DNA from: Magallana gigas
Lineage: Eukaryota
Reading direction: 5' to 3'
Assembly: GCF_963853765.1 (NCBI RefSeq)
Contig: NC_088858.1
Span: forward strand, 7,378,001 to 7,442,000
DNA: 64,000 nt
Shown in pieces: positions 52,201 through 64,000 of this stretch (position 1 is the first letter of the stretch; the number at the start of each line of letters is the position of its first letter). A program made the position numbers.

Positions 52201-55200
52201 TCACACGGGTAATATACACCACACGTATGAGATAAAATTACACATACTCCCATAAAGATATAATATATTTTATAATATTATATTCGTAACAATTAGGGCA
52301 CAATTGCAAGTGACACAGAAATAAAATACTTATTTTAAACGGACACATTTGTAATCCTTATTAATAGAATAGAGTCTGAAGCTGAGTGTGATTCTATATA
52401 ATTAGATAAATGCGGAAGATTAATACTTGTATCGGCACGTGATTGGTGATAGATTAATTAAACAAATCCACACGGAACTTCAGAAAAATAAAAACAACAA
52501 ATATCATCATCATCGACGCCATGGTAGAAATGGTTATAATAACCTGTTTGATGCTTATTTATCTACCAGGTATGTTATTTTTTCTCTCTTATAATACCGA
52601 TTCATGATGTTTTATCGTACAGATGGAAGATTAACCTTTGTGTAATTTTCTACCCGCTGTATGCAAATTAGGTTGACCCGAAGCATATGAGCGGACAATC
52701 TTACATAATACATGTACACTATTTTAGGACTTACCGTCAAACAGAAATCTAGCCGATATTTTGCTGTAATTGTTTAACTGCCATAGAACCAGCAAGTAAT
52801 CAAATCTGAATAAGAAGATAAATAAACTGATAGTCTTGATTTTATATTACTTTATTAAGTACCACTTTATGTTGCGTTGCTTGTTTTTAAACTCTCAAAA
52901 TTATGAAGACCGAACATTTTCAAAAGAAATAAGAAAAGAAAACTTAGCAGATAAAACATTAAGGCATAAAAAAGGTATTAAAAATGTCACAGAATATTAA
53001 AAGCATCTTTCTAAAAATAAAAGTTTCAACTTAGGACCAAACTATCTTATGCTTTATTATATACCATGTAACCCTCTATGCGCAAAATTCCAACCGGACC
53101 ATTTATATTTCCAGTTTCTCTCGTGTTTTCGAGAATTGGGATAAATATTCATGTATTTGTTGAAAATTTAGGCCAGTTTTAACGTGTTTTTTGGTAAAAT
53201 AATGCAAGAAAATTAATTAATTAAAAAATGAAATTTGCAATTATTTTCTGTAGTTTGTTTAAATGCTTTGATATTAAACAACAAGGGTAAACGATACACC
53301 CGCAATGTACAATATATAGACATTTAAAAAATGAAATCGTTGTTGATTCATCCGGGACATGAACGAAGCAACATTACAGAAAAAACCATGACGGCGTTAG
53401 CGGGTTATGTATGTATTTCTACAATGAACGCTACCTTAAAACCCGCATGAATCATCAAAGAAAGCATTTTATTGTTTATATTAATATCTTTCTGTAAACG
53501 AATTGAAAGTAAGTACAAGTAACTAAATGATTCTTAATGTACAGCATTTTGTTTGATAAAAGAAACAGCCAAATCGTCTTATATGGGAATATGAGTCTGA
53601 CATCATCATGATTATATCTGAAGATTTCGACCAATTAATAAACTGCTTCGAACTGGATCGTTTCGATTTAAATCCTGTCAGTTTCGATAGAGCTGTGAAG
53701 TACAATCAATTTACGTAAGAAATAGAGGGAGTCAGACAATTTGGAGATATATATGTATGTTAAATCTTACATTTTTGTGATATTTTCAACACCATTAGTT
53801 TTAAAGCTCAATATGTTATGTTTTAAAACATTTATCAGAAATAACATACACTTTTACTAACATAATTTAAATAGTTTCAATCTCAAAGGACCCCGCTTTA
53901 ATAATGGAAAATACTATAAAAGCATTTCAGAGGTTTTTGCTGTGACTTTCACCTCTGTCTTAGAAACTTTTAGGTTGTAATACAACTGTTAGTCAAGCTC
54001 ATTGTCTTTACCAACAGCATTTTTTAGTTTAATATTAAGCTAATGCGATTTAATTTGTGGTCTAAGCTGGATTTTCAAGAGGTCTGCAATGACCTTAATT
54101 AACATTTGAACTTGAAATTTGGTTTAAGGTCGCTGCACAACCTTTACCCCAAAGCTCTGTTTATGTTACGTATGAGCCAGATAGGGTAATGGGGAGAGTA
54201 AATATGCTCTGAATTTTTTTTTTGCGTGGTTTGATATGACCTTGACCTAGAAAATTCATTTGAGATCACCGCATTTTCTTTGACCAAAGGCACTCTGTGG
54301 GTGAAGTGTGAGCCAGATTGGACCAAAGAGAGAGAATATGTAATTCGGACATGGATTTTTTTTTTTCGATAATTATGCCATGATCTTAACTTTAGACCTA
54401 GAAAATGAGTTAGAAGACGCCGCACACCCTTTATCCAAAGCCCCCATGTAGGTGAAGTATGAGTTATATTTTGCCAAGGGGAGAGAAGATGTGATCTTGG
54501 ACGGATTGACGGACGGACTGATTGATTACTATAGGGCGCCCGAAGAGCGGGGCCCTAAAACATGTTTTTTGAGGTATGTACTGTTTCTAAAAACATTTTT
54601 TTTTTAATTTTCAGCATTTCAGAACAAGACAAAAACTTTTGTGAGCTTTGTCAATTTTGTCTCATCCATACCGCTAATATCGATTCATGATTGAACACAA
54701 GATACATGACTGTACAGAAAACAACGTAGAATTATTGAAAAATATTATTATAAAGTATTTTGTATAAAGGTCAATGAAACACGCGCAACACACGGAAATA
54801 TATCTAGTAAAGCTTCTTTTCCGTTTTAATTACTAAAGCCTTATAAATGAATAACTAATCTAAAAAAAGGAAATAGAATACGGAAATATAATCGGTATTG
54901 AACTATAAACTTATCACTCGTAGAAATAATTATTTCAATTCACATTAAGGTCAGACGACACGTTCCTCGATAATCTTTTTTGTATCTCCTCGTAATGAAG
55001 AGTTCCAATGAAAATATTAATTTTATAATTACTTTAAAAATGATCACAATTTACTTGAATTTGGTTATATGTGTACATGGTCGAGTGGTAAGAACCGTGG
55101 CCGCTCACAGCCAGAAGGGTATAGGTTCTAGAGGTCGTGAGTTCAAAGCCCCGCCCCGGCGGAGATATAATTCTAATTTAGTGAGTTTCTCTGTGCTGTA

Positions 55201-63125: not shown

Positions 63126-64000
63126 AATTTGAATGGTTAATCTTTTCTGAGTTGTCTTTCATTTACCATTCCAACAGGTAAGCCATCGACTCCTATAATT
63201 GAGTCGAACCTGGAGACTCCTCGATACGGTAACACGTTGACTTTGACTTGTAGAAGTTATTCCACGTCGCAGCCAGCATATTACCGACACCAGTTAACCT
63301 GGTCCTATACATGGTACAGAAATGATTCCATCGTCTACCGAGGACACACGTACGCTTTTACAGTCAGTCGTGACGTCATGTATGACGAAATTATGTGTCA
63401 AGCAAAAGAAGTCATCTTGTCAAAAAACAGCAGTACATATAAGATTGGGTATCTGGAGAAATGTAAGTTACTAAATTGAAGGCACAATGCCTCTGTGCAT
63501 AGTTAGGGTCATGTATCTTGATCATCGGTAATTAAGTGACGCAATGAAAATAAATATAACAAGAAAAGTGAATACAGCAGTCTATTACTAATATTATCGG
63601 TCTAGTTTAAAGTGAGTATTATTATATTTCTAGCAAGACCGGCAGAACCAAAAATCGTTGGTATTTCACAAACGAATGCTAAATACTTCAGAATCACATG
63701 GAGTTCCCCATTTGATGGAGGATATCCTCAGTATTTTCTTATATATCAACAAAACATTACGGTATGGGACGTTGTTGCTAATATTAGCCAATCAAACGCC
63801 ACTATCCAATCAGCTGATGTTCCATCTGGCCCAAAAGGCGTGTACAGCGTTGCAATCATGTCTTGCAACATGCTTGGGTGTACCATGCCAGTCAAACTGG
63901 ACAGAGGTTTGTTTATCCTATGTTACATGTAGAAAATAATTACCATATAACGTTTAATTTCAGAAAGGATCCGAAAGAATATATTTGGGAGAGTTCGGTC

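What the first reader, a model, noticed from the sequence alone, without database searches (positions are those of the whole stretch)
52521..63906. Receptor built by duplication of a three-exon FN3-V-Ig cassette
Eight phase-1 exons assemble into one open frame of ~664 aa: SP, FN3-like (55982), V (57025), Ig (57429), FN3-like (61639), V (62254), Ig (63178), FN3 (63634). The two cassettes are paralogous (NVSLxDxxxYxGG; CQAKEV) but strongly diverged, especially in the V and FN3-like parts. Usual Ig/FN3 receptors (nephrin, DSCAM, Robo, L1) place Ig arrays before FN3 arrays; an interleaved order starting with FN3 is unusual. Symmetric phases permit cassette skipping. Inference: a rapidly evolving bivalve immune or allorecognition receptor family.
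Basis: partly seen in the sequence, partly recalled or inferred. Interest (0 to 1): 0.65.

Follow-up and report, generated by a model that had tools for sequence, protein, structure and literature searches.

The report
Oyster receptor with duplicated FN3-like–V–Ig cassette
This is a real, transcribed oyster gene for a single-pass membrane protein whose outer part repeats a three-domain module twice; the module marks an uncharacterised gene family seen so far only in oysters, and what the protein does is untested.

Summary
Eight phase-1 exons (52521-63906, + strand) form one open frame of 664 or 666 codons, depending on which of two exon-5 donors is used. They match residues 1-666 of RefSeq XP_011445362.1 (Crassostrea gigas LOC105340837, 719 aa) at 89-99% identity per domain exon. 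That record continues past the window end with a membrane span and an 18-aa tail. ORFs of 707-725 aa on 2.6-3.9 kb contigs carry all the domains in the same order, so this is one gene.

The domain calls are right:
- The "FN3-like" exons encode a Pfam-orphan seven-strand sandwich (exon 5 modelled, pLDDT 89.5; best fold matches are FN3 domains, none significant).
- The "V" exons encode a V-set fold with no cysteines (exon 6 modelled, pLDDT 90.5).
- The Ig exons are C2-type, closest to CEACAM, CD22 and FcR.
- Exon 8 is a true FN3.

The FN3-like–V–Ig triad occurs once, at the N-terminus, in 14 relatives. All named carriers are oysters (Ostreidae). The doubled form is seen only in Crassostrea and Saccostrea, and the duplication is old. 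No cassette-skipping isoform was found. An immune or allorecognition role remains untested.

The parts
52521..52569 (+). Exon 1: start codon and hydrophobic signal peptide (16 codons + 1 base), donor GTATGT
   Evidence: the same N-terminus is found in P0135 and P0134
55982..56239 (+). Exon 2: first FN3-like domain (N1), 0 Cys, 1 N-glycosylation sequon
   Evidence: Kinship with exon 5 rests on profiles through the bridging sequence P0120. The direct signal is weak. Not folded here.
57025..57315 (+). Exon 3: first V-set domain (V1), 0 Cys, 3 sequons, motif NVSLLDFGVYTGG
   Evidence: 27% identical to exon 6, E 7e-8; not folded here
57429..57710 (+). Exon 4: first C2-type Ig domain (Ig1) with the Cys pair; it ends before a GC donor (GCAAGT at 57711)
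   Evidence: Pfam Ig_2 36.3 bits against a cut-off of 27; junction codon TGC = Cys as in XP_011445362.1
61639..61887 (+). Exon 5: second FN3-like domain (N2). Donor GTTAGT after 61887, as in the RefSeq model. A second in-phase GT at 61882 exists in this haplotype.
   Evidence: AF2 model pLDDT 89.5, pTM 0.77, seven strands; Foldseek best matches are FN3 domains, TMq 0.52-0.67, none at E<=1e-3; donor choice
62254..62565 (+). Exon 6: second V-set domain (V2), 0 Cys, 5 sequons; it ends before a GC donor (GCATGT at 62566)
   Evidence: AF2 model pLDDT 90.5, pTM 0.83, strands A B C C' C'' D E F G; Foldseek gives at least 500 hits at E<=1e-3, with TCR, VH and nanobody V domains on top, TMq 0.69-0.77
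62298..62300 (+). Codon CGG (Arg) at the B-strand position where 11 of 11 other alleles and most family members have Trp
   Evidence: family alignment A4
63178..63462 (+). Exon 7: second C2-type Ig domain (Ig2) with the Cys pair, CQAKEV motif
   Evidence: The family Ig profile A6 matches CEA 3e-18, FCRL5, CD22, CEACAM6/1/5 and Fc-gamma-RII.
63634..63906 (+). Exon 8: membrane-proximal FN3 domain. The gene continues beyond the window (stalk, membrane span, short tail).
   Evidence: profile A5 matches titin FN3 6.6e-24, sidekick-2 FN3 2.7e-5, neogenin 2e-4; the tail is read from P0001

Best explanation
The locus is a divergent haplotype of the Crassostrea gigas/angulata gene LOC105340837. It encodes a type I, heavily N-glycosylated membrane protein with seven beta-sandwich domains outside the cell: [orphan FN3-like domain, disulfide-less V-set domain, C2-type Ig domain] twice, then a true FN3 domain. 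A stalk, one membrane span and an 11- or 18-aa basic tail without signalling motifs follow. The FN3-like–V–C2 triad, one domain per phase-1 exon, is the N-terminal module of a gene family seen so far only in oysters. In the lineage leading to Crassostrea and Saccostrea the three exons were duplicated in tandem inside one gene, long ago, and the outer copy then diverged much faster. Those points are shown here. Inferred: the protein is a cell-surface recognition or adhesion molecule in which each V domain, with the FN3-like domain attached at its N-terminal end (the CDR end in antibodies), forms a binding head, so the duplication gives two heads on one stalk. Lacking a signalling tail and a charged membrane residue, it would act by adhesion, as a decoy, or through a partner. 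It would be the tail-less member of a CEACAM-like multigene family whose other members carry ITIM- or ITAM-like tails.
For: Gene model: XP_011445362.1 (P0001, 719 aa) covers all eight exons in order. All junction codons agree.

Transcripts: ORFs of 707-725 aa sit on contigs of only 2.6-3.9 kb, while exons 1-8 alone span 11.4 kb in the window, so these must be spliced transcripts.

Folds: N2 model; V2 model; Ig by Pfam and PDB profile; FN3.

Cassette as a unit: local profiles find 29 N domains in 26 of the 129 proteins then held. N-V-I occurs once at the N-terminus of 14 proteins, and twice in P0001 and P0003. The partial model P0004 has V(part)-I-N-V-I.

N1~N2 kinship: first-round profiles give hhalign 98.2%, E 2.9e-14. 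The bridge P0120 scores 54.5 bits to the exon-2 type and 39.6 bits to the exon-5 type, against at most 11.2 bits for 2000 shuffles.

Age of the duplication: there is no DNA similarity between the cassettes beyond a 23-nt match at CQAKEV. The Saccostrea echinata protein has the Ig-to-N junction. The cassette-1 branch is 2.47 against 0.84 for cassette 2.

Tail and membrane span. There are 16 sequons in exons 2-8.

Paralog tails: ITIM-like pairs in P0025, P0042, P0087 and P0107; ITAM-like spacing in P0013, P0023, P0024, P0030 and P0034.

Taxa.
Against: There is no expression, binding or functional datum of any kind, so everything on function is inference.

The direct exon 2 to exon 5 signal is weak. 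The exon-5-type profile gives exon 2 only 10.4-11.0 bits (rank 4 and rank 1 among 2001 sequences including 2000 shuffles). hhalign without the bridge gives only 31.6%. The bridge P0120 is a 98-aa hypothetical protein of unknown organism.

The tree joins the two cassettes as sisters only weakly (61/72), and cassette 1 is a long branch. Origin by recombination between two paralogs is therefore not excluded.

The N-domain fold search gave no match at E<=1e-3, the profile search of PDB sequences gave nothing, and 0 of 20 N domains hit Pfam fn3.

Only exons 5 and 6 were folded.

The window's V2 carries Arg at a conserved core Trp, so this allele's V2 may be impaired.

The word-indexed search for the Ig-to-N junction missed P0004, although it is within the length range, so absence elsewhere is weak evidence.
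Confidence: 0.7

Rival explanations
1. The two cassettes belong to two neighbouring paralogous genes, and the eight-exon model is a read-through or annotation fusion.
For: A 3.9-kb intron separates the cassettes. The older model K1PQM8 (P0002, 487 aa) splices differently and drops part of V1, most of Ig1 and all of V2. Single-cassette genes are the family norm.
Against: There is no signal peptide, membrane span or stop between exons 4 and 5, and exon 4 ends in phase 1 at a consensus GCAAGT donor. The junction PNC|SEK is present in XP_011445362.1 and .2, the C. angulata model, 2 transcript-length ORFs of that cluster, 13 of 13 ORFs of the sister cluster, and in related form in Saccostrea echinata.
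Confidence: 0.03
2. It is an immune receptor in the strict sense: a hemocyte surface protein that binds microbes or damaged self. It would work as the non-signalling (decoy or co-receptor) partner of ITIM/ITAM-bearing paralogs, as in paired receptor families.
For: More distant relatives and some paralogs have ITIM-like pairs or ITAM-like spacing in long tails. The family has many paralogs in Saccostrea, some on contigs of identical length and so probably clustered. The V exons are the most variable between haplotypes. Oyster Ig/FN3 receptors with ITIMs that bind microbes are described: CgNCAM1, passages read in PMC11841013, and CgIgIT2, passages read in the review PMC11999971.
Against: No expression or binding data were seen. 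The gene identifiers appear in no searched paper, and supplementary tables were closed. The tail has no motif and the membrane span has no charged residue for an adaptor. Oyster genomes are highly polymorphic in general (recalled, not tested), so 7-11% allelic divergence in the V exons is not proof of selection.
Confidence: 0.25
3. It is an allorecognition or gamete/larval self-nonself marker, polymorphic like the Hydractinia Alr proteins.
For: V-set and Ig domains lacking diagnostic motifs, an FN3-like fold and ITAM/ITIM tails in relatives parallel the Alr family (abstract and section headings of PMC9546547). The window haplotype differs from 11 of 11 other V2 sequences at the same seven positions.
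Against: Oysters are solitary, and no tissue allorecognition system is known to me (recalled). The other 11 V2 sequences differ from each other at only a few sites, which is not the extreme polymorphism of allorecognition loci. No paralog lies in the 52 kb upstream.
Confidence: 0.05
4. It is a housekeeping cell-adhesion molecule of epithelia or nervous tissue with no role in recognising foreign material.
For: The Ig-FN3-membrane span-short tail layout is common among adhesion molecules. The Ig profile also matches JAM, CADM4 and neurotrimin. The double-cassette form is conserved from Crassostrea to Saccostrea.
Against: Divergence between orthologs is high: 69-88% per domain between two Crassostrea-like species and 38-56% to Saccostrea for the domains present. 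The range is lineage-restricted and paralog numbers vary. These features are unlike conserved adhesion molecules.
Confidence: 0.2

Closest known systems
CEACAM family (vertebrate carcinoembryonic-antigen-related adhesion molecules)
   Same: A V-type domain without the canonical disulfide is followed by C2-type domains. The family Ig profile's best solved relatives are CEA (3e-18) and CEACAM6/1/5. NCBI names two paralogs CEACAM5-like and CEACAM1-like. It is a multigene family with long-tailed (Tyr motif) and short-tailed members (the CEACAM side is recalled).
   Different: Here an FN3-like domain precedes each V domain, the V-C2 unit is interleaved with FN3-like domains, and a true FN3 lies next to the membrane. 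V-profile hits to CEACAM are weak (0.014-0.095). No orthology is implied, since CEACAMs are a vertebrate family (recalled).
Receptors made by duplicating a V-C2 cassette (Ly9/SLAMF3, 4Ig-B7-H3): recalled, not tested here
   Same: A tandem internal duplication of a whole multi-exon domain cassette with phase-1 exons gives two V-bearing heads on one chain.
   Different: Those cassettes have two domains (V, C2). This one has three and includes an orphan FN3-like domain, and its two copies are far more diverged (16-36% identity).
Hydractinia Alr family (PMC9546547; abstract and section headings read)
   Same: An invertebrate, lineage-specific IgSF family whose V-set and Ig domains lack diagnostic sequence motifs yet fold canonically. 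It has a membrane-proximal FN3-like fold and ITAM/ITIM tails in some members.
   Different: Alr proteins start with the V-set domain and have six invariant cysteines (section heading). Here the V domains have no cysteine and are preceded by an FN3-like domain. No sequence relation was tested.
Oyster Ig/FN3 immune receptors (CgNCAM1: 3 Ig + FN3 + membrane span + 2 ITIM, passages of PMC11841013; CgIgIT2, passages of PMC11999971)
   Same: Same host, type I IgSF/FN3 layout. More distant hits of this search (P0025, P0042, P0087, P0107) have the same V/Ig...FN3-membrane span-two ITIM-like plan.
   Different: None is described with an N-terminal FN3-like domain or an interleaved order. LOC105340837 has no ITIM. 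I did not hold their sequences, so no alignment was made.
Proteins with interleaved Ig and FN3 domains (tall cytokine receptors such as LIFR/OSMR, Tie2, titin/myomesin): recalled
   Same: FN3-type domains lie N-terminal to or between Ig domains. Cytokine-receptor FN3 domains are among the best fold matches of the N domain (IL-9R-alpha, IL-3R, IL-21R, gp130; TMq 0.54-0.65).
   Different: No cytokine-binding-module hallmarks were looked for or seen. The matches are at fold level only (E 0.025 or worse). The repeated unit N-V-C2 is not known from these proteins.

Membership tests
IgSF V-set domain (exons 3 and 6) | Nine-strand sandwich with C' and C'' strands, structurally matching solved V domains | tested here: met
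   Exon 6 model pLDDT 90.5 with strands A B C C' C'' D E F G. At least 500 PDB matches at E<=1e-3, the top ones all V domains, TMq 0.69-0.77. Exon 3 was not folded; it is 27% identical to exon 6.
IgSF V-set domain (exons 3 and 6) | Pfam V-set (PF07686) at the gathering score | tested here: not met
   Exon 6 scores 14.8 bits against a cut-off of 26, and exon 3 has no hit. P0001 scores 20.7 bits. Only the Saccostrea ortholog P0004 reaches 28.5 bits.
IgSF V-set domain (exons 3 and 6) | Canonical B-F disulfide (Cys...DxGxYxC) | tested here: not met
   There are 0 Cys in exons 3 and 6. The F-strand motif reads D-x-G-x-Y-x-G-G across the family.
IgSF C2/I-type domain (exons 4 and 7) | Pfam Ig_2 at the gathering score; Cys pair and C-strand Trp | tested here: met
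   Exon 4 scores 36.3 bits against a cut-off of 27. Exon 7 alone scores 19.6 bits, and P0001 as a whole scores 43 bits with 2 stretches. C23, W44 and C73 are invariant in 26 sequences. The profile matches CEA, CD22 and FcR C2 domains.
Fibronectin type III (exon 8) | Sequence match to FN3 | tested here: met
   Pfam fn3 gives only 13.9 bits against a cut-off of 25 for the single exon. A six-sequence profile matches titin FN3 6.6e-24, sidekick-2 2.7e-5, myomesin, Cdon and neogenin at about 2e-4.
Fibronectin type III (exons 2 and 5, the 'FN3-like' domain) | Sequence match to FN3 | tested here: not met
   No Pfam hit for either exon at E<=10. 0 of 20 family N domains hit fn3 at E<=1. The profile against PDB sequences gives nothing below E 0.27. 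hhalign against the family's own FN3 profile gives 10%.
Fibronectin type III (exons 2 and 5, the 'FN3-like' domain) | FN3-type seven-strand fold (A B E / C C' F G) | tested here: inconclusive
   The exon 5 model has seven strands, pLDDT 89.5. The best PDB matches are mostly FN3 domains (IL-9R-alpha, PTPRF FN3-6 TMq 0.67, integrin beta-4 FN3 0.63, sDscam FN3 0.59), but none reaches E<=1e-3. The Atlas lead to fn3/Ig_J clusters lies below its recognition threshold. Exon 2 was not folded.
CEACAM family | Mature protein begins with the disulfide-less V (N) domain | tested here: not met
   An FN3-like domain (exon 2) lies between the signal peptide and V1.
CEACAM family | Common descent with vertebrate CEACAM genes | not tested
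   No tree with vertebrate CEACAMs was built. The only link is the profile similarity of the C2 domains.
ITIM/ITAM-bearing immune receptors | ITIM (S/I/V/L-x-Y-x-x-I/V/L) or ITAM in the cytoplasmic tail | tested here: not met
   The tails HMKYGIGHTLKKKILRRS (X1) and HMKYGNVLDTL (X2) hold no motif. Several relatives do. The tail lies outside the window and is read from P0001 and P0136.

The most novel reading that the evidence does not exclude
The FN3-like–V–C2 triad is an oyster-specific recognition module. In it, an orphan FN3-like cap sits at the CDR end of a cysteine-free V domain and helps form, or gates, the binding site. The family would be a CEACAM/KIR-like system of polymorphic inhibitory, activating and tail-less receptors for non-self (microbes, or conspecific cells or gametes), with LOC105340837 as a bivalent, two-headed member.
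Probability: 0.15. Interest if true: 0.7.

Novelty: new variant of a known kind. Interest (0 to 1): 0.4.

Why it matters
Oysters lack antibodies and rely on expanded germline receptor families. Most of these families are known only as "uncharacterized protein" records. This report defines one such family by a concrete unit, an orphan FN3-like domain fused to a disulfide-less V domain and a C2 domain. It shows that the unit is an evolutionary module: single in most members and duplicated as three exons in this gene. It also gives confident models for the two unusual domains. That makes the family searchable and testable through expression, ligand screening and population genetics. If the V domains turn out to be under diversifying selection, it would add an invertebrate example of V-domain-based recognition. 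If not, it is an ordinary lineage-specific adhesion protein with an odd domain order.

Tried and rejected
1. An alignment of whole proteins for a full-length model (A3) was clearly misaligned: P0004 showed 27% instead of about 50%, and the 88%-identical fragment P0010 showed about 15%. It was not used. The two structure jobs went to exons 5 and 6 instead, so exons 2, 3, 4, 7 and 8 were not folded.
2. The first N-domain alignment with whole proteins (A1) scattered the last strand of exon 5. It was replaced by A2.
3. Complex prediction (N2 with V2, to test whether the cap packs on the V domain) met a full queue three times and was then declared unavailable. Nothing was folded.
4. The ESM Atlas look-up for exons 2 and 5 gave recognition values of 2061 and 2088, below the 2300 mark. 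The nearest named clusters were fn3 and phage Ig_J. This is a weak lead only.
5. Single-sequence PDB searches with exons 4 and 7 found nothing at E<=0.01.
6. Looking for paralog exons elsewhere in the window found none at E<0.03. ORFs of at least 95 aa outside the locus gave no Pfam family, apart from the PKA subunit and two unmatched frames (16 scanned, 3). No tRNA was found.
7. Paper searches for the gene and paralog identifiers returned 0 papers. The four-term search on C. gigas IgSF/FN3 expansion also returned 0. Supplementary tables, where expression lists would name the gene, were closed.
8. The DNA comparison of the two cassettes found no significant similarity.
9. dN/dS was not computed, because no nucleotide sequence of another allele or species was on hand.
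10. The bacterial/archaeal genome collection and the phage, plasmid and E. coli collections were not searched, as they are irrelevant to an oyster gene.
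Full report
**What is there**

- Exon 1 (52521-52569) holds the ATG and a hydrophobic signal peptide.
- Exons 2-8 are 258, 291, 282, 249, 312, 285 and 273 nt long. Each starts with two bases and ends with one base of a split codon, and none holds a stop.
- Two donors are GC rather than GT: exon 4 ends before GCAAGT (57711) and exon 6 before GCATGT (62566). The nearest GT donors would shift the frame.
- Exon 5 has two in-phase donors six bases apart, after 61881 and after 61887.

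Every search with window sequence was made exon by exon.

**One gene, transcribed**

A search with exon 7 alone among longer proteins returned four records:
- XP_011445362.1, uncharacterized protein LOC105340837 isoform X1 of Crassostrea gigas (P0001, 719 aa);
- an older UniProt model, K1PQM8 (P0002, 487 aa);
- an unnamed 718-aa protein at 82% identity (P0003);
- a 423-aa partial model of Saccostrea echinata (P0004).

Mapped back on the window, P0001 covers all eight exons in order, and the seven junction codons computed from the window agree with it. P0001 continues with a stalk, one membrane span and the tail HMKYGIGHTLKKKILRRS, which lie beyond base 64000.

The 90% cluster of P0001 has 55 members, of which 15 were listed. 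They include XP_011445362.2 (720 aa), isoform X2 (712 aa, differing only in the last residues), the C. angulata ortholog (719 aa), and ORFs of 725 and 670 aa on contigs of 2.7-2.95 kb. The P0003 cluster holds 13 ORFs of 633-724 aa on contigs of 2.6-3.9 kb. Exons 1-8 span 11.4 kb in the window, so contigs that short can hold the whole frame only if they are spliced transcripts (inference).

All of these ORFs keep every domain. They differ only by a 6-aa upstream extension, 5' truncation to an internal Met, the alternative tail, and single-residue indels. The reading as two genes is therefore refuted, and no cassette-skipping form was seen. K1PQM8 is a mis-spliced older model that drops part of V1, most of Ig1 and all of V2.

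**The domains**

Pfam on the single exons finds Ig_2 on exon 4 (36.3 bits, cut-off 27) and weakly on exon 7. V-set appears only at 14.8 bits on exon 6 and fn3 only at 13.9 bits on exon 8. Exons 2, 3 and 5 have no hit.

I then searched 1.84 billion cluster representatives with P0001. This gave 126 proteins at E<=1e-3, 45 at E<=1e-10 and 13 at E<=1e-30. I built domain profiles from them locally.

- **Exon 8.** A six-sequence profile matches titin FN3 domains (6.6e-24 over several domains), sidekick-2 (2.7e-5), myomesin, Cdon and neogenin. It is a true FN3.
- **Exons 4 and 7.** A 26-sequence profile has an invariant Cys-Trp-Cys. It matches CEA (3e-18), FCRL5, CD22, CEACAM6/1/5 and Fc-gamma-RII. 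These are C2-type Ig domains.
- **Exon 6.** With a 36-sequence alignment it gives a confident AlphaFold2 model (pLDDT 90.5, pTM 0.83) with strands A B C C' C'' D E F G. Foldseek returns at least 500 PDB matches at E<=1e-3, and the top ones are TCR, VH, nanobody and sodium-channel beta-4 V domains (TMq 0.69-0.77). It is a V-set fold.
- **The V exons lack cysteines.** Exons 3 and 6 contain none. The family motif is D-A-G-Y-Y-x-G-G where V domains normally have D-x-G-x-Y-x-C. The sequence profile finds only weak IgSF hits in the PDB (best 5e-4; CRTAM, TIM-3, CD226 and PD-L1 V domains at 0.004-0.1).
- **Exon 5.** With a 20-sequence alignment (A2) it gives pLDDT 89.5, pTM 0.77 and seven strands. 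Its best PDB matches are mostly FN3 domains: IL-9R-alpha, IL-3R, IL-21R, gp130, PTPRF FN3-6 (TMq 0.67), integrin beta-4 (0.63) and sDscam (0.59). Sandwich domains of bacterial glycosidases also appear. None reaches E<=1e-3.
- **The N domain is an orphan at sequence level.** Pfam is blank for 20 of 20 members, the PDB profile search is blank, and hhalign against the family's own FN3 profile gives 10%.

"FN3-like" is therefore a fair name at fold level. I call this domain N.

**The cassette**

The N profile finds 29 copies in 26 of the 129 proteins then held. In 14 proteins the order N-V-Ig occurs once, directly after the signal peptide. It is followed by further Ig domains, an FN3, a membrane span and often a long tail. 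These proteins are P0005, P0008, P0012, P0013, P0014, P0015, P0018, P0021, P0022, P0023, P0024, P0030, P0034 and P0076.

The order occurs twice only in P0001 and P0003. The partial P0004 has V(part)-Ig-N-V-Ig. A search aimed at the Ig-to-N junction found only the P0001 and P0003 clusters and P0002. It also missed P0004, so it is not exhaustive.

The three-exon unit is therefore a real evolutionary module, and the interleaved order comes from repeating a module that begins with N.

**How strong is the paralogy of the two cassettes?**

- V1/V2 and Ig1/Ig2 are directly similar: 27% identity (E 7e-8) and 36% (E 5e-12) in the window.
- N1/N2 share only 16% identity in A2.
- A profile of exon-5-type and single-cassette N domains gives exon 2 just 10.4-11.0 bits. 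That is rank 4 and rank 1 among 2001 sequences that include 2000 shuffles.
- hhalign of the two first-round profiles gives 98.2%, but only 31.6% when the shared sequence P0120 is removed.
- P0120 is a 98-aa hypothetical protein of unknown organism. It scores 54.5 bits to the exon-2 type and 39.6 bits to the exon-5 type, while its shuffles reach at most 11.2 bits.

Kinship of exons 2 and 5 is thus well supported, but only through this link, together with their identical place in the cassette.

A maximum-likelihood tree was built on 17 complete cassettes. Fragments, P0002, P0008 and P0018 were left out. It puts cassette 1 and cassette 2 together only weakly (61/72). Cassette 1 sits on a branch of 2.47 changes per site against 0.84 for cassette 2.

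This fits a tandem duplication inside the gene followed by fast divergence of the outer copy. It does not exclude recombination between paralogs. No DNA similarity remains between the cassettes beyond 23 nt at the CQAKEV motif, and Saccostrea shares the doubled form, so the event is old.

**Range and variation**

Every named protein with the N domain comes from an oyster:
- C. gigas: LOC105340837, LOC105335170 and LOC117685460;
- C. angulata;
- C. virginica: LOC111111792;
- Ostrea edulis: LOC125663257;
- many loci of Saccostrea cucullata and S. echinata. Several sit on contigs of identical length (221,170 and 7,920,544 bp), which suggests clustering.

No paralog exon lies in the 52 kb upstream in this window.

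Identity of the window's exons to other sequences:

| Domain | Three gigas/angulata models | P0003 | Saccostrea P0004 |
|---|---|---|---|
| N1 | 95-99% | 69% | – |
| V1 | 89-90% | 80% | – |
| Ig1 | 97-98% | 81% | 56% |
| N2 | 93-94% | 82% | 38% |
| V2 | 91-93% | 79% | 43% |
| Ig2 | 93-99% | 82% | 54% |
| FN3 | 96-98% | 88% | – |

A dash means the domain is absent or only partial in the P0004 model.

The V exons are the most variable between haplotypes, and N1 is the most variable between species. Without nucleotide sequences of the other alleles I could not compute dN/dS. The window's V2 differs from 11 of 11 other sequences at the same seven positions. One of these is Arg (CGG, 62298-62300) in place of the conserved B-strand Trp.

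**How it most likely works**

Shown here:
- a signal peptide;
- seven extracellular sandwich domains with 16 N-glycosylation sequons;
- one membrane span without a charged residue;
- a tail of 18 or 11 residues without ITIM, ITSM or ITAM.

Inferred: it is a surface recognition or adhesion protein. In V domains the N-terminus lies at the end that carries the CDR-equivalent loops (established knowledge of antibody and TCR V domains). A domain fused there should sit beside those loops, so N and V may form one head, and the duplication would give two heads on one stalk.

Having no signalling tail, the protein would act by adhesion, as a decoy, or through a partner. Relatives carry long tyrosine-rich tails. 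P0025, P0042, P0087 and P0107 have ITIM-like pairs. P0013, P0023, P0024, P0030 and P0034 have ITAM-like spacing. The family as a whole therefore resembles CEACAM-type or paired-receptor families.

Whether the ligands are microbial, self or conspecific is open. No paper in the searched library names this gene or five of its relatives, and supplementary tables were closed. Described oyster IgSF receptors (CgNCAM1, passages of PMC11841013; CgIgIT2, passages of the review PMC11999971) have other layouts. The Hydractinia Alr family (abstract of PMC9546547) is the closest conceptual parallel for motif-poor V and Ig domains with an FN3-like fold.

**Verdict**

- The gene is already in RefSeq as an uncharacterised protein, so the gene itself is not new.
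- The definition of the N-V-C2 module, its Pfam-orphan FN3-like domain, the cysteine-free V domain and the cassette duplication appear to be undescribed in the literature I could search.
- The functional inference (immune or allorecognition) is untested.
- I rate it a new variant of a known kind, of moderate interest.

Noticed in passing
window 23753-24913 (- strand): An uninterrupted 386-aa open frame beginning MSLEIPDGL, with Pfam RIIa (1.8e-9) and two cyclic-nucleotide-binding domains (1.8e-46). It is a complete type II regulatory subunit of cAMP-dependent protein kinase with no intron, which suggests a retrocopy or an intronless gene.
   Followed up: partly
window 57711-57716 and 62566-62571: Two of the seven introns of the gene are GC-AG (GCAAGT after exon 4, GCATGT after exon 6). 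Both are used in the RefSeq model and in the transcript-length ORFs.
   Followed up: yes
window 61876-61893: Two in-phase donors lie six bases apart at the end of exon 5. The upstream GT exists because this haplotype has AGT (Ser) where the reference proteins have Asn. Its use would replace three linker residues (SKP here, NKP in the reference models) with a single Thr between N2 and V2.
   Followed up: partly
window 62298-62300: This haplotype has Arg (CGG) at the conserved B-strand Trp of V2, where 11 of 11 other alleles have Trp. It may be a destabilising variant or a sequencing error.
   Followed up: partly
window 57708-57710 with 61639-61640, and the Cys codon inside exon 5 (LCRGLF): The split codon at the exon 4/5 junction encodes Cys. 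A second Cys lies in the last strand of N2. Both are conserved in P0003 and in Saccostrea P0004 but absent from single-cassette N domains. This could be a disulfide stapling the ends of N2. The first Cys was not part of the folded exon.
   Followed up: no
window 61446-61514 and 63061-63122: There is an (AG)34 microsatellite in intron 4, 125 bases upstream of exon 5. It reads as a long Glu-Arg run in two frames. There is a (TA)31 microsatellite in intron 6, upstream of exon 7.
   Followed up: no
P0002 (UniProt K1PQM8) against window exons 3-6: The older C. gigas model of this gene (487 aa) is mis-spliced. It keeps N1, half of V1, 17 residues of Ig1, N2, Ig2 and FN3, lacks V2, and has a different C-terminus.
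   Followed up: yes
upstream of window 52521: Transcript-length ORFs of both clusters can start six codons further upstream (MGSNDA... and MASKDG...). The window reads differently just before the ATG. This points to an alternative 5' exon or allele that was not located in the window.
   Followed up: no
window 2473-2940 (- strand): A 155-aa open frame with a hydrophobic start, probably the first exon of another gene. It has no Pfam family at E<=1e-3.
   Followed up: partly
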